From NCBI GenBank assembly GCA_016721305.1, contig JADKIH010000007.1, positions 112,595 to 176,594 on the forward strand: a stretch of 64,000 nt of DNA. The letters run 5' to 3'. The notes beneath the pieces are model-generated. The model saw only the letters and a list, made by a program, of their open reading frames with translations. It did no database searches and had not been told where the DNA came from. This stretch comes from Bacteroidota bacterium. Its GTDB lineage: Bacteria > Bacteroidota > Bacteroidia > AKYH767-A > 2013-40CM-41-45. The position numbers and the translations under genes were made by a program. Positions 287-43,440 of the stretch are shown piece by piece; the first letter of the stretch is position 1; each line of letters opens with the position of its first letter.

Positions 287-1069
287 TTATTTATAAGTCT
301 CCGTCTGTTTTTTATTCAAAAACTGAAAGAAAGTATCGCTGCGGAGTCCGATTCGCAATGATTCCAGAGCGATGACTTCAGTAGGAGCGATGTTACCGAG
401 ATTAACATTGGCACCCAGCAATTTGATAAAGTAAACCTGTCCACTCTTATTTGGAGTTTCCCAGATGATGTGCTCGGCTGAAACTTTAGAAATAATTTTG
501 TTGATGAGAACAACGTGCGCTTTTCCATTCGGTCGATAGATACCGACAGTACCACTCTCACGGGCTTCGGCGATAACCTTCCATGCACCGGCCTGAATTT
601 CACTCTCAATCAATTCAATCCATTTATTTGGGTGAATGATAATTCCTTCTTCCTTCGAGCCTACCTCAGTAATGACAGTTACATACTTGCTAAGCTTACG
701 AATAAATTCAAGTTTTTTATTGTGATCAAGTGAAATACTACCATCACTAACTTCGGCATGTGTTAGCTTGTACTTTTCGATCAGCTTGAGATAATCATCG
801 AATTTATTTCGAGCAATGAAAGCCTCAAGTAGTGTACCTCCAAAATAAACAGGAATTTTAGCCGAGCGATAAACTGCCAGTTTTTTGTCGAGATTCGGTG
901 TAACATAAGAGCTGCCAAAGCCCAATTTTACCATGTCGATATAGTCGCCCGACACTTCAATCATGTCTTCAGCCTGACGAGTGCTCAAGCCCTTATCCAT
1001 AACCATAGTAAGTCCCGACTGACGCGGTTTCGCAGACCGTGCCGGTATATTATCAAGGGAGAAATTCAT
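287..1069 (-). CDS. (2R)-phospho-3-sulfolactate synthase family protein (ComA-like)
   Basis: 260-aa ORF with overall resemblance to the ComA/PF02679 family (N-terminal MNFSLDNIP...RQSGLTMVMDKGLS). Its start overlaps the stop of the upstream TPR gene. Confidence 0.5.
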   Translation of the reverse strand: MNFSLDNIPARSAKPRQSGLTMVMDKGLSTRQAEDMIEVSGDYIDMVKLGFGSSYVTPNLDKKLAVYRSAKIPVYFGGTLLEAFIARNKFDDYLKLIEKYKLTHAEVSDGSISLDHNKKLEFIRKLSKYVTVITEVGSKEEGIIIHPNKWIELIESEIQAGAWKVIAEARESGTVGIYRPNGKAHVVLINKIISKVSAEHIIWETPNKSGQVYFIKLLGANVNLGNIAPTEVIALESLRIGLRSDTFFQFLNKKQTETYK

Positions 1070-2484
1070 ATTCTATTTTTATAAAGGTCAATTAAATCGA
1101 GAATATTCTTGTCGTTTTCCATGACAGGAGCATACTCGAAGACCAGGTGGCAAAGGTGGACATTTTTCTCCAGTGCTTCGGCAAGAATCTGATACGATTC
1201 ATGAACTTTTCCGCACATGTAGAGATAGCAAGCCATCCTATAATTTAATTCAGCGTTATCGGGGTGATAAATCATTCCTGCCTGAAGTAATTCAACTGCT
1301 TCATCGGCACGATTATCAACCATGAGAAGGTGAGAATATTCAATCCAGATATCGGCATTTTCAGGTTCGAGTTCCAGCACTTTTTTGTAACTCATTTCAG
1401 CCGAAATGTAATTGTCGAGATGATATTCTGCGTCACCTAGAGCAAACCAGAATTCCGCGTTATTGGAATCGATCTCCAGGGCTTTTTTGATATAATGTGT
1501 TGCTTCAAACCAGCGTTCTTCATTCTGAAGAGTCACGCCGATTCCCAACCAGGCTTCAGCAATATTCGGATCGAGTTTCGTAGCCTTTTTGTAATAGTCA
1601 CGTGCACGATGCATATCCTCGAGCTGTTCGTAGCATTCGCCGATATTGTAATAAGTGAGAGCGTCGGGAGCTTCGAATTCGAATGTCTTTTTGTAGCATT
1701 CGATAGCTTCGGCATAACGATTCAAGTTCGCCAGTGTGTTTCCTTTATTGAAATACGCTGAAGAGAAATCGTCTTTGATAACCAGGCAATAATCGTAGGC
1801 ATTTAAGGCATCTTCATAGCGATTCAACCTGTTATAGACATTGCCCAAATTGTACCATGCAGGGAAGCTATACGGCTGCAGATCGATGAAACGAGTATAG
1901 AAGTCGATGCTATCGGTAAAACGCTCCGTGAATTCAAAACAGAATGCGATCTCATAAAGAGCGACATCATTTTCCGGATTGTTTTCCAAACTCAATTTGA
2001 GATAGGAGATAGCCTTATCATAATCGCCCCAGCTTTCATAAACATAGGCAAGATTCAGATAAAGCATATCCAGTTCCTCGGCAAGAGGAATGGCTTTATT
2101 GAAGCTCTCGATAGCCTCTTCAAATTTTTGAAGTTGGGAATAGATGGAGCCTCTGATCATATACAGATCGGGATCTAACGGTGTTATCCGCTCAGCCTTA
2201 TCCAATATACTGAGAGCTTCATCTAAACGCTCGACCATAGCCAAAAGCTGAGCTTTGCGCAGAAGAAATTCTACCGAAGCCGGATGCTGGTCCTGAGCGA
2301 ATTCAACAACCTGCAATGCTTTTACAGGATCGTTTTTTTCGATGTAGTAATCTATAATATTGAGAAATGCGTCGACGTCAAAGAAGTAAGCATCTTTGTT
2401 GCGAATCATCTCTTCGTACCGTTCAATGGAATGGCGGATCTGATTTTGCTGGTCGCCTGGACCAAGGAATTCTTCTTCTTCCAT
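1066..2484 (-). CDS. tetratricopeptide (TPR) repeat protein
   Basis: 472 aa with repeated AxxYYNLGxxYxxLxxYxEAxxxYxKAL 34-residue units. Confidence 0.65.
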   Translation of the reverse strand: MEEEEFLGPGDQQNQIRHSIERYEEMIRNKDAYFFDVDAFLNIIDYYIEKNDPVKALQVVEFAQDQHPASVEFLLRKAQLLAMVERLDEALSILDKAERITPLDPDLYMIRGSIYSQLQKFEEAIESFNKAIPLAEELDMLYLNLAYVYESWGDYDKAISYLKLSLENNPENDVALYEIAFCFEFTERFTDSIDFYTRFIDLQPYSFPAWYNLGNVYNRLNRYEDALNAYDYCLVIKDDFSSAYFNKGNTLANLNRYAEAIECYKKTFEFEAPDALTYYNIGECYEQLEDMHRARDYYKKATKLDPNIAEAWLGIGVTLQNEERWFEATHYIKKALEIDSNNAEFWFALGDAEYHLDNYISAEMSYKKVLELEPENADIWIEYSHLLMVDNRADEAVELLQAGMIYHPDNAELNYRMACYLYMCGKVHESYQILAEALEKNVHLCHLVFEYAPVMENDKNILDLIDLYKNRI

Positions 2485-2605
2485 TTAGTAAAATTAGGTC
2501 TCGAAAAAGATTGTTACCCCCAAATATAGTCAAAAAAAGCGAATTCCGCGCTATTGAGTTGCGAGTTTTCCACAGGGGGGTGCGGGCTTCGACAAGCTCA
2601 GCCAA

Positions 2606-2671
2606 CGGGTTGCGGGTTGCGGGGTGCGGGTTACGGGTTGCGGGTTACGGGTTACGGGTTACGGGTTGCGG
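2606..2671. repeat. Tandem heptamer array (GGGTTRC)x9, G-rich on the + strand
   Basis: Direct read: gggttgcgggttgcggggtgcgggttacgggttgcgggttacgggttacgggttacgggttgcgg. Confidence 0.85.
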
Positions 2672-2756
2672 AAGAGGCTCTCTGCCAATTAAAGCCGTTA
2701 TAGTAGATTTTCGCCCAATTTCGCCATCTCACCCTCAATTATAACGACCAGGAGGT

Positions 2757-2862
2757 TACACTTACTTACTAATTACTAATTACCAATTGCTACTTACTAC
2801 TAGCTACTTACTACTTACTACTTACTACTTACTACTTACTACTTACCACTTACTACCTACTA
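2757..2862. repeat. Tandem heptamer array (TACTTAC)n with leader taattactaattaccaattgctac
   Basis: Direct read. About 12 units lie 28 bp upstream of the recF ATG. Confidence 0.85.
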
Positions 2863-2889
2863 ATCCCACACATTCCGTACCTTAGCCCC

Positions 2890-4041
2890 ATGCATCTCCA
2901 TTCCCTTTCTCTTGTCAATTTCAAGAATTACCCCGCTGCTGAGCTAATGTTCTCGTCAGGGGTAAATGCCTTTACGGGGAACAATGGAGAAGGTAAGACC
3001 AATTTGTTGGATGCGGTGCATTATCTGGCACTCTGCAAGAGCTATTTCAATCCATCCGATGTCCAGAATATCCGTCAGGGCGAGGACTTTTTCGTCGTTC
3101 AGGGAAATTTTGAACTGAACAATGTTCCCGAGATGGTGAGTTGCGGATTCAAGCGCGGACAGAAGAAAGTCTTGAAGCGTAATCAGAAGGAATATGAACG
3201 CTTGGCAGATCATATCGGAATGATACCCGTGGTGATGATTTCGCCAACCGATTCGACATTGATTACCGATGGAAGTGAAGAACGTCGAAAATTTCTCGAC
3301 AGCATCATCTCTCAATTTAATCCGCATTACTTGGACGATCTGATCAATTACGGACGAGTACTTTCGCAGCGAAATGCGTATTTGAAACAAGCATTTCAGT
3401 CGCGCCGTTTCGATATCGATTCATTATCTATTTGGGATGAACAACTCATTCCGCTTGGCAACCGAATTTTTGATGTCCGAAAAGAATTCGTTGAAGCGAT
3501 GCTGCCGATTTTCCGACATTACTACAATTTCATTTCAGGCGGGAAAGAGGAAGTTGAAATTCGTTACGATTCATATCTGGTCGACGATACATTCTCCGTT
3601 CAACTGGCGAATGCATTGGAGAAAGACCGGATTATGCAGTATACAACCGTTGGTACTCACAAAGACGATTTGCTCTTTATGATCGGCGGATTCCCTGCGA
3701 AGCGATTTGCATCGCAAGGACAGCAGAAATCATTCTTAGTCGCTCTGAAATTGGCACAATTCGATTACATGGCGAAGCAAAAAGGAATGAAGCCCATTCT
3801 TTTACTCGACGATATTTACGACAAGCTCGACGACAAACGCATTTCGCGATTGATGGAATTAGTGAGCAAGCATAATTTCGGGCAAATATTTATTACCGAT
3901 ACACACACCGAACGCGTTCTCGAAATTTTCGATCGTATTCAGGTTGACATAAAGTGTTTCTTTTTGCAAGGCGGAAACATAGAGGTATGTAAAGACGTAC
4001 ATCACCCTTCATACGCAGCTGAAAATTCAAATCCGTCATGA
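2890..4041 (+). CDS. recF: DNA replication and repair protein RecF
   Basis: N-terminal LSLVNFKNY...FTGNNGEGKTNLLDAV Walker A and an SMC-like C-terminal LLLDDI motif. 383 aa. Confidence 0.9.
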   Translation: MHLHSLSLVNFKNYPAAELMFSSGVNAFTGNNGEGKTNLLDAVHYLALCKSYFNPSDVQNIRQGEDFFVVQGNFELNNVPEMVSCGFKRGQKKVLKRNQKEYERLADHIGMIPVVMISPTDSTLITDGSEERRKFLDSIISQFNPHYLDDLINYGRVLSQRNAYLKQAFQSRRFDIDSLSIWDEQLIPLGNRIFDVRKEFVEAMLPIFRHYYNFISGGKEEVEIRYDSYLVDDTFSVQLANALEKDRIMQYTTVGTHKDDLLFMIGGFPAKRFASQGQQKSFLVALKLAQFDYMAKQKGMKPILLLDDIYDKLDDKRISRLMELVSKHNFGQIFITDTHTERVLEIFDRIQVDIKCFFLQGGNIEVCKDVHHPSYAAENSNPS

Positions 4042-4337
4042 AGCACTTTCGTCAGTCGAACGACCTCACTTTAAAAGAAGCACTCGAGGCAATGGTTAAG
4101 TCTTTTCGTTTAGAAGGGAAGATGAACGAGGTAAAATTGATCAATGCCTGGGAAAAAGTGATGGGAGCAGCCGTAGCACATCGAACCACAGAAATCAAGA
4201 TCATTAACAAAAAGCTTTACGTTACTTTATCATCTGCTGCACTTCGCCAGGAGTTATTTATGGCGAGAGAAAAGATTGCTGTTTCTTTGAATGAAGAGGC
4301 GGGGGCAGCGGTGATTGATGAAATTATCTTCAAATAA
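4038..4337 (+). CDS. DUF721 domain protein (recF-associated small protein)
   Basis: 99 aa, with ATGA start/stop overlap with recF and the conserved recF-DUF721 position. Confidence 0.6.
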   Translation: MKHFRQSNDLTLKEALEAMVKSFRLEGKMNEVKLINAWEKVMGAAVAHRTTEIKIINKKLYVTLSSAALRQELFMAREKIAVSLNEEAGAAVIDEIIFK

Positions 4338-4394
4338 TTTTTTTCTCTAATCGGTGTCGGAGTTGCAACTCCAACACCGATTAGAGAAAAAAAT
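4338..4394. terminator. Bidirectional rho-independent terminator hairpin between DUF721 (+) and ndk (-)
   Basis: tctctaatcggtgt..loop..acaccgattagaga is a perfect ~14-bp stem flanked by T-run and A-run. Confidence 0.65.
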
Positions 4395-4810
4395 TAGAAT
4401 CGCTCAAACGCCGAGAAGAAGAAGTTTCCTTCAATCGCAGCATTCTCATCGCTATCAGAACCGTGAACTGCATTCGCTTCAATTGATTTAGCGAAGAGAT
4501 TACGGATAGTTCCTTTTTCTGCTTTAGCAGGATCAGTTGCACCGATCAGCTTACGGAAGTCTTCCACAGCATTATCTTTTTCAAGAATAGCCGCTACAAT
4601 CGGACCTGACGACATATAGTTTACCAGATCTTTGTAGAACGGACGCTCTTTGTGAACTGAATAAAATTCACCGGCACGTTCAGGTGTCAGGCGTGTATAT
4701 TTCATCGCCACAATACGGAATCCCGCTTCGTTCATTTTGGCTAAAATTGGACCGATGTAATTGTTTCCAACTGCATCCGGTTTAAGCATTGTAAATGTTC
4801 TGTTTGACAT
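4394..4810 (-). CDS. ndk: nucleoside diphosphate kinase
   Basis: 138 aa: [10 protein letters not shown]...NAVHGSDS. Confidence 0.9.
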
Positions 4811-4847
4811 GTGATTATATTGGTTGTTTTATTTTTTTTTTAGAGTT

Positions 4848-4913
4848 AGCTGATTAGCTGATTAGCTGATTAGCTGATTAGCTGATTAGCTGATTAGCTG
4901 ATTAGCTGATTAG
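4848..4913. repeat. Octamer tandem array (AGCTGATT)x8
   Basis: Direct read. It lies between the pntB stop and the ndk start. Confidence 0.85.
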
Positions 4914-5016: not shown

Positions 5017-5043
5017 ATTAGCTAATCAACTAATCAGCTAATC
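5017..5043. repeat. Inverted partner array (AGCTAATC / AATCAGCT)x3
   Basis: tattagctaatcaactaatcagctaatc is the reverse-complement orientation of the 4848-4913 array. The two arms are separated by about 105 bp and could form a hairpin. Confidence 0.75.
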
Positions 5044-6776: not shown

Positions 6777-7139
6777 TTAATTTAAATTTTCCTGGAACTT
6801 GATAACGCGAAGAGTAGCTTCCAGCACTTCAATCATACTCTTGCCTTGATTAATAATAAGGTGACTGTTATTCAGATTCACTTTTTCGTATTCGAGTGAA
6901 CGCTCATACCAGTACATACAATTCTTTGCTTCCTGAATAAACACACACAGATAGGAGTAGAACTCACGCGGTGATCTGCATGTGTGTATCATTGTCGATG
7001 CTTCTTCTAAAGAAGCTACCGATGTTTTCAACTTCTTGCTCAAAAATAAATCGATGTGATTTTCTTCAGCCTGTAAAGAGGATGATAAAATCGATTGTGC
7101 AAAATTTTCAGTCCAGTTTTTAAAATTCATGTCTTTCAT
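6777..7139 (-). CDS. hypothetical protein inserted between pntAA and pntAB
   Basis: 120-aa ORF, co-directional and tightly spaced inside the pnt operon. Predicted helical. Only weak, uncertain similarity to four-helix-bundle (23S rRNA IVS-like) proteins. Confidence 0.4.
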   Translation of the reverse strand: MKDMNFKNWTENFAQSILSSSLQAEENHIDLFLSKKLKTSVASLEEASTMIHTCRSPREFYSYLCVFIQEAKNCMYWYERSLEYEKVNLNNSHLIINQGKSMIEVLEATLRVIKFQENLN

Positions 7140-7160
7140 AAATGTTTAATAAGTGTGGGA

Positions 7161-8291
7161 TCACGCCGTCACTGTTTGAGCGACAGATGGGTGGACAGCT
7201 TGACCATTGTGAACTATCAGGGATCCTTTGGTAATTTCTTCTTCCATTTCCCACTTAAAACCGTCTTTCGTAGCTAAGTGGAGAAGAAATGCCTGAATGT
7301 TTTTTGCATACAATTCAGACGCATTTAAAGGTAACAGACTAGGTAAATTTGATTCGCCAATAATGGTAACACCATTCTTGACTACAGTTTTATTTACCTC
7401 ACTCAGAACGCAATTTCCGCCCTGAGCAACAGCCATATCAACAATCACAGATCCCATTTTCATACTCTTCACCATATCTTCTGTAACCAGCACCGGTGCT
7501 TTACGACCCGGAACCAGGGCAGTGGTGATAACCAGATCTGCTTCTGAAATATGTTTAGCAATCAGGGCCTGCTGCATTTTGAGGAATTCGTCGGAAACAC
7601 CTTTTACATACCCGCCTTCAATCTTCACAGAGGCATCTCCTTTTACTTCGATGAATTTACCACCAAGAGATTCGACTTGTTCTTTTGTTTCAGGACGGAT
7701 ATCCGACACTTCTACAATTGAACCCAATCGTTTCGCCGTAGCGATTGCCTGAAGTCCGGCAACACCGGCTCCCATAATGACAACCTTCGAAGGCTTGATC
7801 GTTCCGGCCGCTGTCATCAGCAACGGGAAGATTTTACCTAAGGCAGCAGCACCGATAATGACGGCTTTGTAACCGGCCAAATTGGCCTGAGAACTGAGCA
7901 CGTCCATTTTCTGAGCACGGGAAATACGCGGGATGGCATCCATCGAAAAGGCACTGATACCCTGACGAACGCAAGCTTCAACAACCTGAGGGTTGGTGCC
8001 GGCATACATCAGCGAAATCAGAATGGCGCTTTTCTTCATCCAGCCGATTTCGGCAGGAGTAGGAGCGTTAATTTTTAAGATTACATCGGCTTCGCGATAG
8101 AGCGATTCAGCATCGGCCACCATTCGGGCTCCTGCCTTTTCATATCCTGAATTGTCGAAATACGAGTTCAAACCCGCATCTTTTTCAACCAGAACCTCAA
8201 AACCCGCTTTGATCAGGGCCGCTACAACGTCGGGGGTCAATGACACACGACGTTCATAATCATTCTTTTCTTTTGGAACGCAAACTTTCAC
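7161..8291 (-). CDS. pntAA: NAD(P) transhydrogenase subunit alpha part 1 (AlaDH/PNT domain)
   Basis: 376 aa with the Rossmann motif VIMGAGVAGLQA. Confidence 0.85.
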   Translation of the reverse strand: MKVCVPKEKNDYERRVSLTPDVVAALIKAGFEVLVEKDAGLNSYFDNSGYEKAGARMVADAESLYREADVILKINAPTPAEIGWMKKSAILISLMYAGTNPQVVEACVRQGISAFSMDAIPRISRAQKMDVLSSQANLAGYKAVIIGAAALGKIFPLLMTAAGTIKPSKVVIMGAGVAGLQAIATAKRLGSIVEVSDIRPETKEQVESLGGKFIEVKGDASVKIEGGYVKGVSDEFLKMQQALIAKHISEADLVITTALVPGRKAPVLVTEDMVKSMKMGSVIVDMAVAQGGNCVLSEVNKTVVKNGVTIIGESNLPSLLPLNASELYAKNIQAFLLHLATKDGFKWEMEEEITKGSLIVHNGQAVHPSVAQTVTA

Positions 8292-16493: not shown

Positions 16494-18444
16494 ATGAAAA
16501 TTAAAAGCTTCTTACTGACCCTGCTCATCACTCTCTCACTCGCGACATACGCACAAAATAAGGAGGAGTTAACTTCATCTGTACCAAAAGCCGTTAGAGC
16601 ATTCGAAACAGCTTTGAAATACTACGATGGCAGGTTGAACCAAAAAGCAGTTGAAGCACTTGATGAGGCAATCGAAGCCGACCCTAAATTTGTAGAAGCA
16701 CATACATTGAAGGGCAACATTCTCTCCGACATGAAAGAATATGAAAAGGCCATTGCCAGTTATAAGAATGCAATTACAGCGAGTCCTGATTTTTTCCCAA
16801 ACACGTATTACTCACTCGGAAAATTACAATACCGAGCCGGGCATTATGAAGAAGCAAAATCTTCGTTCACAAAATTTTTAAGTTATGATAAAATCAGCCC
16901 GGGGCTAAAGCAAGGAGCAAATGTTCTGAGTGCGAATTGTGATTTTGCAATCAATGCAGTTAAAAATCCTGTAGCATTTGACCCGACGAATATGGGTGAT
17001 AGCATCAACTCAAAAGAAGACGAGTATTTCCCATCGTTTACAGTAGATGGACAATCTTTGCTCTTCACTCGTAAATTACCTTCAGGGAGAACATTTCAGG
17101 AAGACTTTTATAAATCAGAGTTAAAAGGATCTTCGTGGTCATTTGCAAAAGCTGTTACCGAGTTAAATACACCGGCTAACGAAGGAGCGTCTTTTATGAC
17201 GGCCGATGGACAATACTTATTTTTTGCCTCTTGTGAAGAGCTTGGAAATCCTGATTCGCGTCCGACCAAGGGAAGCTGCGATATTTTCATTGCTAAAAAA
17301 GTCGGCGATAAATTTATGAATCCGCGTGATTTGCTTGAACCGCTGAATTCAGGTGGATGGGAAAGTCAGCCATCATTTTCAACAGATGGAAGAACAATTT
17401 ACTTCGTAAAAAAAGTGAAAGAAGCTTCGAATCAAACTCACACCGATATTTATATTTCTCAATTAGACGATAAAGCAAATTGGAGCGTTCCTGTTTCAGT
17501 AAGTGATAAGATCAATACAAAGATGAATGAAAGCGCCGTCTTTATTCATCCCGATGATCAGACATTTTATTTCACATCAAACGGACATCCGGGAATGGGA
17601 GGAGAGGATATTTTTTATTCACGTCGTCAGATCGATGGAACTTGGGGCGATCCTGTAAACTTAGGCTATCCGATAAATACCGTCAACGATGAATTTGGTT
17701 TTGCCGTAAGTCCCGATGCTAAAACAGGGTACTTTGTTTCTGATCGTCCGGGCGGTTTGGGTGGTCTCGATTTATATTCATTTCCATTGTACGAAAGTGC
17801 GAGACCAAAAATCGTAACATACATGAAAGGTCGAGTTTTCGATAGTGAAACGAATGCACCTTTGGATGCATCTTTTGAATTGATTGATCTCGGTACTGGA
17901 AAAGTTATGGTTCGATCTGTGTCTGATTCCAAAACCGGTGAATTTCTTTTATGCCTTCCAACCGGCAAAACAATATGCGCTCAATGTTTCACGTTCCGGC
18001 TATTTATTCTATTCCGATCACTTCGAATTGAAAGATCCTGCTACAGCAAGTAAGCCTGTCAAAAAAGATATTCCGCTCAAACCAATCAAAGCCGGACAAA
18101 CCATTGTCCTCAACAATATCTTTTACGAAACCGACAAGTTCGATTTAAAGCCGGAATCAAAAATTGAATTGGATCGATTAGTAAGTTTCCTGAACAACAA
18201 TCCGAAAGTCCATTTCGAAATCAGCGGTCACACCGATAATGTAGGCGGAAAAGAGTACAACAAAACGCTCTCTGAAAAGCGTGCAAAAACCGTCTATGAT
18301 TATTTAGTCACCGCCGGAATTCCTGCAACAAGAATGAGTTCAAAAGGTTTTGGAGACACCGTCCCTGTTGCCGAAAACACATCCGATGCCGGTAGAGCGA
18401 AGAATCGGAGGACGGAGTTTAAGGTGACTTCTTTGGACAATTAG
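16494..18444 (+). CDS. OmpA family protein with N-terminal TPR and TolB-like beta-propeller repeats (frameshift near 17950-18050)
   Basis: Two overlapping ORFs. The C-terminal OmpA-like domain reads NNIFYETDKFDLKPES...HTDNVGGKEYNKTLSEKRA. Confidence 0.75.
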
Positions 18445-43151: not shown

Positions 43152-43184
43152 TGTAAGTTGTCAGGTAAGTAGTAAGTAGTAAGT
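43152..43184. repeat. (GTAAGTA)n, the reverse-orientation TACTTAC heptamer array 32 bp upstream of fmt
   Basis: Direct read: gtaagttgtcaggtaagtagtaagtagtaagttgaccaatt. Confidence 0.75.
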
Positions 43185-43385: not shown

Positions 43386-43440
43386 CAACTTACTACTTAC
43401 AACTTACTACTTACGAATTTCTACCCACTACCTACAACTA
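43386..43440. repeat. (TACTTAC)n degenerate array downstream of the MATE gene
   Basis: Direct read: caacttactacttacaacttactacttacgaatttctacccactacctac. Confidence 0.7.

What the first reader, a model, noticed from the sequence alone, without database searches (positions are those of the whole stretch)
2606..2671. Telomere-like G-rich heptamer array (GGGTTRC)9 with strong G-quadruplex potential in the TPR/recF divergent promoter
There are nine consecutive GGG tracts spaced by four nucleotides on the + strand. GGGTTA is the vertebrate telomere repeat. Such arrays readily form intramolecular G4 structures, and this one sits in a 400-bp divergent intergenic region together with the TACTTAC array. 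It could be a G4 regulatory switch for recF or the TPR gene, or a recombination hotspot.
Basis: partly seen in the sequence, partly recalled or inferred. Interest (0 to 1): 0.5.

Follow-up and report, generated by a model that had tools for sequence, protein, structure and literature searches.

The report
Strain-variable G-rich heptamer repeat, not a switch
The nine-unit GGGTTRC array is real and could fold into a G-quadruplex, but it is best read as one of many fast-evolving 7-8-base intergenic simple repeats in this uncultured Bacteroidota genome, not as a telomere-like or conserved regulatory element.

Summary
Window 2606-2671 holds nine GGG tracts in 7-nt register, and it is the only canonical G4 motif in 64 kb (G4Hunter 1.32). 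It lies between a TPR gene and recF.

The functional reading is not supported:
- The window carries 12 period-7/8 arrays, 11 of them intergenic. All the others are AT-rich.
- In 728 kb of related Bacteroidota DNA, 114 such arrays occur. Only 4.4% have a GGG/CCC unit, against about 10% expected.
- Six relatives with the same TPR/recF layout have a 228-239 bp spacer and no arrays. The window's 405 bp equals that length plus the two arrays.
- Three strains about 99% identical carry 8, 9 and 10 units, two of them with GAGTTGC units that break G-tracts.
- Conserved -7 boxes place the array upstream of both predicted start sites (-90..-155 for TPR, -219..-284 for recF), so it is probably untranscribed.
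- (GGGTTRC)≥3 occurs in at least 120 unrelated metagenome contigs, which also carry other heptamer arrays.

Verdict: a slippage-generated long simple sequence repeat whose G4 capacity is incidental, and a new member of a known kind. Its left flank is a copy of a widely dispersed 17-nt motif, which may have seeded it.

The parts
2606..2671 (+). G-rich heptamer array (GGGTTRC)x9.4, with nine G3-4 tracts at 2607-2665. This is the finding itself.
2575..2585 (+). Degenerate G-rich stretch (GGGGGGTGCGG) between the conserved box and the dispersed motif. It adds two more G-runs upstream of the array.
   Evidence: G4Hunter window 2572-2599, score 1.04
2586..2602 (+). GCTTCGACAAGCTCAGC, a solitary copy of a widely dispersed 17-nt motif. 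Its tail, CAACGGG, runs into the first array unit and may be the seed of the array.
   Evidence: a partial second copy follows the array in strain contig L189
2566..2574 (+). TTTTCCACA box (DnaA-box-like), conserved in all relatives with this gene layout at a fixed distance of about 38 nt from the TPR -7 box. It probably belongs to the TPR promoter module.
2521..2528 (-). Predicted sigma-A -7 box of the TPR gene (TATATTTG on the - strand). It implies a TSS near 2516 and a 5' UTR of about 32 nt.
   Evidence: conserved as CAAAGATA in relatives; consensus TAnnTTTG at -12..-5 (PMC9723704); inference
2704..2711 (+). Partly conserved TAGATTTT box between the two arrays. It could be a second recF-direction promoter, in which case the TACTTAC array would be transcribed and the G array would not.
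   Evidence: inference
2763..2862 (+). AT-rich heptamer array (TACTTAC)x14.3, ending at the recF core promoter. It differs between strains and is nearly absent in L067/L068.
2878..2885 (+). Predicted recF -7 box TACCTTAG. It implies a TSS at 2890, the A of the ATG, so recF would be leaderless.
   Evidence: TACCTTCG is conserved in all relatives; PMC9723704; inference
1066..2484 (-). TPR-repeat protein gene (472 aa)
2890..4041 (+). recF (383 aa), followed by dciA at 4038-4337

Best explanation
The array is a long simple sequence repeat made and maintained by replication slippage in 7-nt (and 14-nt) register. Its host lineage, an uncultured Bacteroidia, is unusually prone to expanding 7- and 8-nt units in non-coding DNA.

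It probably nucleated on the ...CAACGGG tail of a dispersed 17-nt motif that sits immediately to its left. It then expanded inside the unconstrained middle of the TPR/recF spacer, between the TPR promoter module (about 2485-2575) and the recF core promoter (about 2863-2889).

Its main effect is to add about 67 bp of length-variable spacer DNA. The + strand could fold into one or two G-quadruplexes if unwound, for example by the negative supercoiling expected between divergent promoters. That capacity is a by-product of the unit that happened to expand, not a selected switch.

Shown here: the array exists, it varies between strains, it is absent in relatives, and it belongs to a class of arrays that is not enriched in G-tracts. 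Inferred: the slippage mechanism, the seeding from the motif, the promoter positions, and the lack of regulatory function.
For: 1. Class membership. The window has 12 period-7/8 arrays, 11 of them in the 17% of bases that are intergenic. Dinucleotide shuffles give a mean of 2 low-score arrays, against 17 arrays of all periods observed. In window plus 64 recF loci (728 kb) there are 114 arrays, with a sharp period spectrum: 7 nt 74, 8 nt 40, 9 nt 5, others about 0.
2. G-tracts are not favoured. Only 5 of 114 units contain GGG/CCC (4.4%), against 10-11% for random units at this GC. In 267 imperfect interior units of metagenomic GGGTTRC arrays, G positions 1-2 are the most often substituted (151 of 342 mismatches, mainly G>A).
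3. No conservation. L002, L003, L005, L006, L017 and L063 have the same TPR<->recF layout and the same conserved promoter boxes, but spacers of 228-239 bp with no arrays. 405 - 67 - 100 = 238.
4. Hypermutability. The window has 9 units, L190 has 10 and L189 has 8. The latter two each carry two GAGTTGC units. The 124-nt left flank is identical in all three and the whole contigs are 99.1-99.2% identical to the window.
5. Position. The array lies at -90..-155 from the predicted TPR TSS and -219..-284 from the predicted recF TSS. It is outside any -33/-7 spacer and outside the predicted transcripts.
6. No promoter bias of the class. Arrays occur in 10.8% of divergent, 19.5% of convergent and 14.7% of tandem intergenic regions. 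Metagenomic GGGTTRC arrays split into tandem 29, convergent 7 and divergent 4.
7. Recurrence of the unit. (GGGTTRC)>=3 is found in at least 120 contigs of GC 0.34-0.73, with 3-31 units and no flank homology to the window. Those contigs carry 130 other heptamer arrays.
8. No Rfam family is found in 2300-3100. The ORF that crosses the array has no Pfam match.
Against: There are no expression, TSS or in-vivo structure data, and the promoter positions rest on consensus and conservation only. All three strains keep at least four consecutive intact G3 tracts, so G4 capacity is retained in each. The site between divergent promoters is where negative supercoiling would favour non-B DNA. The same few units recur at several loci in the window (TACTTAC at 4 arrays, AGCTAAT-type at 6 arrays), which pure local slippage from random seeds does not explain and which leaves room for sequence-specific function or spread. 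Only 64 kb of the genome could be examined. The closest relatives with the same gene layout are distant (66-72% RecF identity).
Confidence: 0.7

Rival explanations
1. Functional G4 (and i-motif on the other strand) element. Negative supercoiling from divergent TPR and recF transcription extrudes a quadruplex on the + strand. This either absorbs superhelical stress or recruits or blocks factors, tuning one or both promoters.
For: It is the only canonical PQS in 64 kb, with G4Hunter 1.32 and a maximum of 1.72. Folding with G-quadruplex terms predicts two G4s (-28.5 versus -23.1 kcal/mol). The same G3N4 architecture folds in vitro (PMC4692102). It lies between divergent promoters. Every strain seen keeps at least 4 consecutive intact G3 tracts.
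Against: The array is absent from all relatives with the same promoter architecture. G-tract-breaking units occur in two of three strains. G-tract positions are the most mutated across metagenomic arrays. G3 units are under-represented among Bacteroidota arrays. Arrays of this unit are rare in divergent spacers, and G-rich heptamer repeats are under-represented there in Xanthomonas and Nostoc (PMC4692102). The array is predicted not to be transcribed.
Confidence: 0.1
2. Copy-number-dependent promoter modulator (a contingency-type repeat). Slippage in 7-bp steps changes the distance and helical phase between the TPR promoter module (with its TTTTCCACA box) and elements on the recF side, giving heritable expression variants.
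For: Copy number is 8, 9 and 10 in three strains. The array sits between conserved promoter elements. The neighbouring TACTTAC array also varies between strains.
Against: The array lies outside the -33/-7 spacers, where known promoter phase variation acts. The TTTTCCACA box keeps its fixed spacing to the TPR -7 box on the near side of the array. The genes are housekeeping types (TPR, recF), not surface or restriction-modification genes. Arrays of the class are at least as common in convergent spacers that hold no promoter.
Confidence: 0.07
3. Recombination or rearrangement hotspot. The array, by itself or through G4 formation, promotes breakage or ectopic exchange with other copies.
For: Strain contig L189 departs from the window sequence exactly after the eighth unit. 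It runs into a second partial copy of the flanking motif (GCGACAAGCTCAGCAAACG), then a hairpin, then another repeat. L067 and L068, from two independent assemblies, share an alternative junction at the end of the TACTTAC array. 48 of 120 metagenomic arrays lie within 400 nt of a contig end.
Against: Short-read assemblers break or mis-join at repeats, which explains both the contig ends and possibly L189. L190 and the window are collinear through the array. No second GGGTTRC array exists in the 64-kb window. Gene order around the locus is conserved in the other strain contigs.
Confidence: 0.08
4. Array of binding sites for a sequence-specific DNA-binding protein (iteron-like). Three heptamers span two helical turns, so every third unit would face the same side.
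For: The periodicity is regular, and the same units recur at several loci for other arrays in the window.
Against: No candidate protein was found, and this unit occurs only once in the window. The unit sequence drifts between strains. Units differ at orthologous positions between relatives, for example upstream of recF in L001, L010, L011 and L013.
Confidence: 0.04

Closest known systems
G-quadruplex-forming heptamer SSRs of Xanthomonas (GGGAATC) and Nostoc (GGGGAYT), Rehm et al. 2015, PMC4692102
   Same: Both are tandem heptamers with one G3-4 tract per unit (G3N4), non-coding, and variable in copy number and sequence between close relatives. Oligonucleotides of that architecture fold into G4 in K+. 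No regulatory role could be shown there either.
   Different: Those units occur at hundreds of loci per genome with a preference for exactly four units, and they are under-represented between divergent ORFs. This array has 8-10 units, is the only G-rich array in 64 kb, and lies between divergent ORFs. The unit sequence and the phylum also differ.
Long simple sequence repeats (LSSR) of 5-11 nt units in prokaryotes, heptamers commonest (Mrazek, Guo & Shah 2007, as summarised in PMC4679880)
   Same: It is a head-to-tail short-unit array far longer than chance allows, in non-coding DNA, in a lineage where heptamers dominate. Polymerase slippage is the proposed cause.
   Different: Nothing essential differs. 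Bacteroidota were not among the top LSSR-rich genomes listed there. The strong second peak at 8 nt and the frequent inverted array pairs do not appear in the summary of that work read here; the original paper was not read.
TAACTGA heptamer repeats of Beggiatoaceae, cyanobacteria and five Bacteroidetes (MacGregor 2015, PMC4679880); cyanobacterial STRR heptamers (own knowledge)
   Same: These are dispersed intergenic heptamer arrays of unknown function. They include long arrays in Bacteroidetes whose close relatives have shorter spacers without repeats.
   Different: Those arrays are AT-rich, often lie a few nucleotides upstream of start codons, and were proposed to bind RNA-level regulators. 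This array is G-rich and predicted to be untranscribed.
Eukaryotic telomere repeats (vertebrate TTAGGG; fission-yeast-type TTAC(A)G2-5, own knowledge)
   Same: There is a G3 tract followed by TTA/TTG, so the strand is G4-prone. A few metagenome hits to the pattern sit among AACCCTA-type repeats and may be eukaryotic (L086, L103, L139, L163).
   Different: This array is at an internal chromosomal position between bacterial housekeeping genes. Its period is 7 rather than 6, and it has no terminal location. The resemblance is coincidental.

Membership tests
Long simple sequence repeat (LSSR, 5-11 nt unit) | Head-to-tail copies of a 5-11 nt unit | tested here: met
   Period 7, 9.4 copies, 89% matches
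Long simple sequence repeat (LSSR, 5-11 nt unit) | Longer than expected by chance in that sequence | tested here: met
   8 two-unit matches against 0.01 expected. Shuffles give only low-score arrays.
Long simple sequence repeat (LSSR, 5-11 nt unit) | Copy-number polymorphism between close strains (slippage behaviour) | tested here: met
   8, 9 and 10 units in contigs 99.1-99.2% identical to the window, with identical flanks
G4-forming heptamer SSR (Xanthomonas/Nostoc type) | Heptamer unit with a G3-4 tract and at least 4 consecutive units | tested here: met
   Nine G3-4 tracts; G4Hunter 1.32
G4-forming heptamer SSR (Xanthomonas/Nostoc type) | Same unit dispersed at many loci of the genome | tested here: inconclusive
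   Only one locus in the 64-kb window. The rest of the genome is not available. L189 hints at a possible second copy.
G4-forming heptamer SSR (Xanthomonas/Nostoc type) | Preference for four units; placement between co-oriented ORFs and under-representation between divergent ORFs | tested here: not met
   8-10 units, in a divergent spacer. Metagenomic GGGTTRC arrays do follow the family's placement: tandem 29, convergent 7, divergent 4.
G4-forming heptamer SSR (Xanthomonas/Nostoc type) | G4 formation shown by CD or melting in K+ | not testable with these tools
   Only in-silico scores are available, plus analogy with (GGGAATC)3GGG.
Telomeric repeat | Located at the end of a linear replicon | tested here: not met
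   Bacterial genes lie on both sides: TPR and ComA to the left; recF, dciA, ndk and pntB to the right.
Telomeric repeat | Unit equals a known telomerase product (such as the TTAGGG hexamer) | tested here: not met
   Strict 7-nt period, GGGTTRC
Phase-variable promoter SSR (contingency locus) | Repeat lies in the core promoter spacer or in the 5' coding region | tested here: not met
   The array is at -90..-155 (TPR) and -219..-284 (recF) from the predicted start sites. The start sites are predicted, not mapped.
Phase-variable promoter SSR (contingency locus) | Associated with surface, antigen or restriction-modification genes | tested here: not met
   The flanking genes are a TPR protein and RecF.
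Replication origin (DnaA-box cluster with repeats) | Several DnaA boxes clustered next to an AT-rich unwinding region | tested here: not met
   There is a single TTTTCCACA at 2566-2574. The window holds 9 boxes against 8.1 expected, with no cluster.
Known structured RNA (Rfam) | Match to a covariance model | tested here: not met
   No match with E<=1 in 2300-3100

The most novel reading that the evidence does not exclude
The 7-8-nt arrays of this Bacteroidota lineage are not junk. They would form a system of structure-forming intergenic elements: inverted array pairs acting as terminator hairpins, and orphan arrays acting as supercoil-absorbing or insulating spacers. They would be seeded by, or spread with, dispersed motifs such as GCTTCGACAAGCTCAGC. 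Within that system the GGGTTRC array would be a G4/i-motif insulator that uncouples the divergent TPR and recF promoters.
Probability: 0.06. Interest if true: 0.55.

Novelty: new member of a known kind. Interest (0 to 1): 0.2.

Why it matters
For this locus it matters little. The array is a strain-variable simple repeat, not evidence of telomere biology or of a conserved G4 switch in bacteria, and it should not be annotated as regulatory.

Its practical value is as a hypervariable strain marker. It also warns that short-read assemblies of this lineage break or mis-join at such arrays.

The wider pattern may be worth a separate study of how heptamer and octamer repeats arise and persist in bacteria. 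That pattern includes the sharp 7/8-nt period spectrum across Bacteroidota, the frequent inverted array pairs, and the recurrence of a few units at many loci.

Tried and rejected
- Telomere reading: rejected, because the position is internal and the period is a heptamer.
- oriC or DnaA-box cluster next to recF/dciA: rejected, because there is one box and no cluster.
- Known RNA family in the spacer: none found.
- Protein-coding reading of the 125-aa ORF 2367-2744 that crosses the array: it has no Pfam match, overlaps the TPR gene on the other strand, and its translation is a repeat peptide.
- Inverted partner for the G array, as many other arrays have: none in the spacer or the window.
- Complementarity between the GGGTTRC and TACTTAC arrays: none, by inspection.
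- Same locus among metagenome pattern hits: none of the 120 share flanks with the window.
- Exact-protein look-ups for the TPR and Ndk proteins: not on record. RecF and ComA look-ups did give the strain contigs.
- Sigma-70 consensus scan: uninformative for a Bacteroidota promoter type.
- Literature searches for a described Bacteroidota 7-8-nt array class, or for the 17-nt motif by sequence: nothing specific found.
- General link between GGGTTRC arrays and the 17-nt motif: not seen in the 120 metagenome contigs.

Full report
OBSERVATION. The sequence at 2606-2671 reads GGGTTGC GGGTTGC GGGGTGC GGGTTAC GGGTTGC GGGTTAC GGGTTAC GGGTTAC GGGTTGC GG. Tandem Repeats Finder reports period 7, 9.4 copies, 89% matches, score 97. 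It also reports a 14-nt super-period with score 113, which suggests duplication of two-unit blocks. The two-unit pattern occurs 8 times, all here, against 0.01 expected in shuffles. This is the only canonical (G3+N1-7)x4 motif on either strand of the 64-kb window. G4Hunter averages 1.32, with a best 25-nt window of 1.72. Folding with G-quadruplex terms predicts two quadruplexes (-28.5 versus -23.1 kcal/mol without those terms). The flanking genes are a TPR-repeat protein (1066-2484, -) and RecF (2890-4041, +), followed by DciA, Ndk and PntB.

ORGANISM AND GENERAL CONTEXT. RecF finds only uncultured Bacteroidota/Bacteroidia, with a best identity of 75%. The window is full of similar arrays: 12 with period 7 or 8, of which 11 lie in the 17% of bases that are intergenic. 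All the others are AT-rich, for example TACTTAC, TTAGCTGA, AATTAGCT, TTATGAA and TCAATCT. Across the window plus 64 recF loci of related Bacteroidota (728 kb) I count 114 arrays of at least 3 copies. The period spectrum is sharp: 7 nt 74, 8 nt 40, 9 nt 5, and almost nothing else. Only 5 units (4.4%) contain GGG or CCC, against 10-11% expected for random units at this GC content. Arrays occur in 10.8% of divergent, 19.5% of convergent and 14.7% of tandem intergenic regions, so the class is not tied to promoters. The G-rich array is thus one unusual flavour of a lineage-wide repeat habit.

COMPARISON WITH RELATIVES. Six relatives (L002, L003, L005, L006, L017, L063; 66-72% RecF identity) have the same divergent TPR/recF layout. 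Their spacers are 228-239 bp and contain no tandem arrays. The window's spacer is 405 bp, and 405 minus the two arrays (67 + 100) gives 238. The alignment shows four conserved landmarks:
- the TPR 5' leader;
- a -7 box on the minus strand (window 2521-2528, TATATTTG);
- a TTTTCCACA box at a fixed ~38 nt from that -7 box (2566-2574);
- a recF -7 box, TACCTTCG in relatives and TACCTTAG in the window (2878-2885).
The sigma-A -7 box of this phylum lies at -12..-5 (PMC9723704). That predicts a TPR start near 2516 (leader about 32 nt) and a recF start at 2890, the A of the ATG, which would make recF leaderless. The G array then lies at -90..-155 and -219..-284, upstream of both core promoters and outside both predicted transcripts. 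These positions are inferred, not mapped.

STRAIN VARIATION. Exact-protein look-ups recovered contigs of the same species from ENA metagenomes. They are 98.9-99.2% identical to the window. On the TPR side the 124-nt left flank is identical in all three, but the array differs:
- The window has 9 units.
- L190 has 10 units: GGGTTGC x2, GAGTTGC x2, GGGTTGC x2, GGGTTAC x3, GGGTTGC.
- L189 has 8 units and then leaves the window sequence.
The array therefore changes much faster than its flanks, in copy number and by substitutions that break G-tracts. The neighbouring TACTTAC array also differs between strains. In two independent assemblies (L067, L068) it is reduced to about two degenerate units with a different upstream sequence.

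THE UNIT ELSEWHERE. They span GC 0.34-0.73 and carry 3-31 units. None shares flanks with the window. These contigs carry 130 other heptamer arrays with diverse units. Of the arrays that could be classified, 40 are intergenic (tandem 29, convergent 7, divergent 4) and 12 fall in crude ORFs. Among 267 imperfect interior units, G positions 1 and 2 are the most often substituted. There is therefore no sign that G-tracts are protected. The same unit also occurs once in another Bacteroidota locus (L015 7739-7765).

ORIGIN. Immediately left of the array lies GCTTCGACAAGCTCAGC (2586-2602). This exact 17-mer recurs in distant Bacteroidota loci. In L011 it forms an inverted pair making a 19-bp stem, and it also occurs in L023. 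It is present in at least 120 IMG/VR contigs of GC 0.35-0.70. Of 114 copies far enough from contig ends to score, 32% have an inverted partner within 200 nt, 19% have complementary 3-nt flanks (1.6% expected), and 22% are followed by GAACGG. In the window the motif is followed by CAACGGG, which runs into the first unit. In L189 a second partial copy follows the array. I infer that the array nucleated on the tail of this dispersed motif and then grew by slippage. This is plausible but unproven.

MECHANISM AND VERDICT. The best-supported reading is a slippage-generated long simple sequence repeat. It works like the LSSRs surveyed by Mrazek et al. 2007 (summarised in PMC4679880). Its closest relatives in kind are the G4-capable heptamer repeats of Xanthomonas and Nostoc (PMC4692102). 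An oligonucleotide of this array would very probably fold into a G4 in K+, as (GGGAATC)3GGG does. Nothing indicates that this capacity is used in the cell: the array is not conserved, it tolerates G-tract loss, it is predicted to be untranscribed, and it is atypically placed for such repeats. A supercoiling-driven G4 between divergent promoters, a length-dependent promoter effect, and a role as a rearrangement breakpoint all remain possible at low probability. None can be excluded without experiments. I rate it as a new member of a known kind, of low interest in itself.

Noticed in passing
window 2586-2602; L011 6321-6404; L023 1061-1077; L191-L270 and further IMG/VR loci from the same scan: GCTTCGACAAGCTCAGC is an exact 17-mer shared by very different genomes and at least 120 viral contigs (GC 0.35-0.70). 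It often occurs as inverted pairs or with complementary flanks and a GAACGG tail, so it looks like a cross-phylum dispersed palindromic element. Full elements give only sub-threshold hits to Rfam RF02901 (AaHKsRNA41). No description of it was found by sequence search of the literature.
   Followed up: partly
window 4846-4913 with 5017-5043; 43165-43184 with 43386-43439; L002, L017 and L063 about 7104-7202; L010 5873-5973; L013 5804-5959: Neighbouring arrays often have reverse-complementary units. Of 61 adjacent pairs within 300 nt, 15 are inverted and 3 are direct, against a rough by-hand estimate of about 1% for two random heptamers (no control was run). These pairs would form long hairpins built from tandem repeats. 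Several sit right after stop codons, for example after recF in L002, L017 and L063, like terminators.
   Followed up: partly
window plus L001-L064 (728 kb): The period spectrum of tandem arrays is sharply bimodal at 7 nt (74 arrays) and 8 nt (40), with almost none at 6, 9 or 10+. A few units recur at many loci in the window: TACTTAC at 2763, 28931 and 43386, with its complement at 43165; AGCTAAT-type at 4846, 5017, 18439, 18506, 22244 and 54257, and also at L001 5910. Purely local slippage does not explain this recurrence.
   Followed up: partly
window 2566-2574: TTTTCCACA, a DnaA-box-like 9-mer, is invariant in the window and six relatives at a fixed ~38 nt from the TPR -7 box. It may be a regulator site for the TPR gene next to recF/dciA. 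It is a single box, not an origin.
   Followed up: partly
window 2878-2892: The conserved -7 box TACCTTAG ends 4 nt before the recF ATG, which predicts a leaderless recF mRNA. In relatives the predicted leader is about 2 nt.
   Followed up: no
L189 1-130 (reverse of window orientation), after the array: In one strain contig the array is followed by GCGACAAGCTCAGCAAACG, an A10 run, a GGCCGA...TCGGCC hairpin and the start of a GAATTCATAATTC-type repeat. None of this is in the window. It is either a structural variant or an assembly join through a second GGGTTGC array elsewhere in the genome.
   Followed up: partly
L067 1-65 and L068 1-65, compared with window 2672-2846: Two independent assemblies share an alternative recF-upstream sequence that lacks the long TACTTAC array and keeps a TAGATTTTC box. 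This looks like a second allele of the spacer within the species.
   Followed up: partly
window 4335-4396: A 62-nt near-perfect palindrome lies between the convergent dciA and ndk genes. It is probably a bidirectional terminator.
   Followed up: no
window 18054-18441: Reading the sequence by eye, an OmpA-like C-terminal coding sequence seems to continue to a TAG near 18441, beyond the ORF end called at 18053. That suggests a frameshift or a mis-called boundary just before the AATTAGCT array. No translation or family search was run.
   Followed up: no
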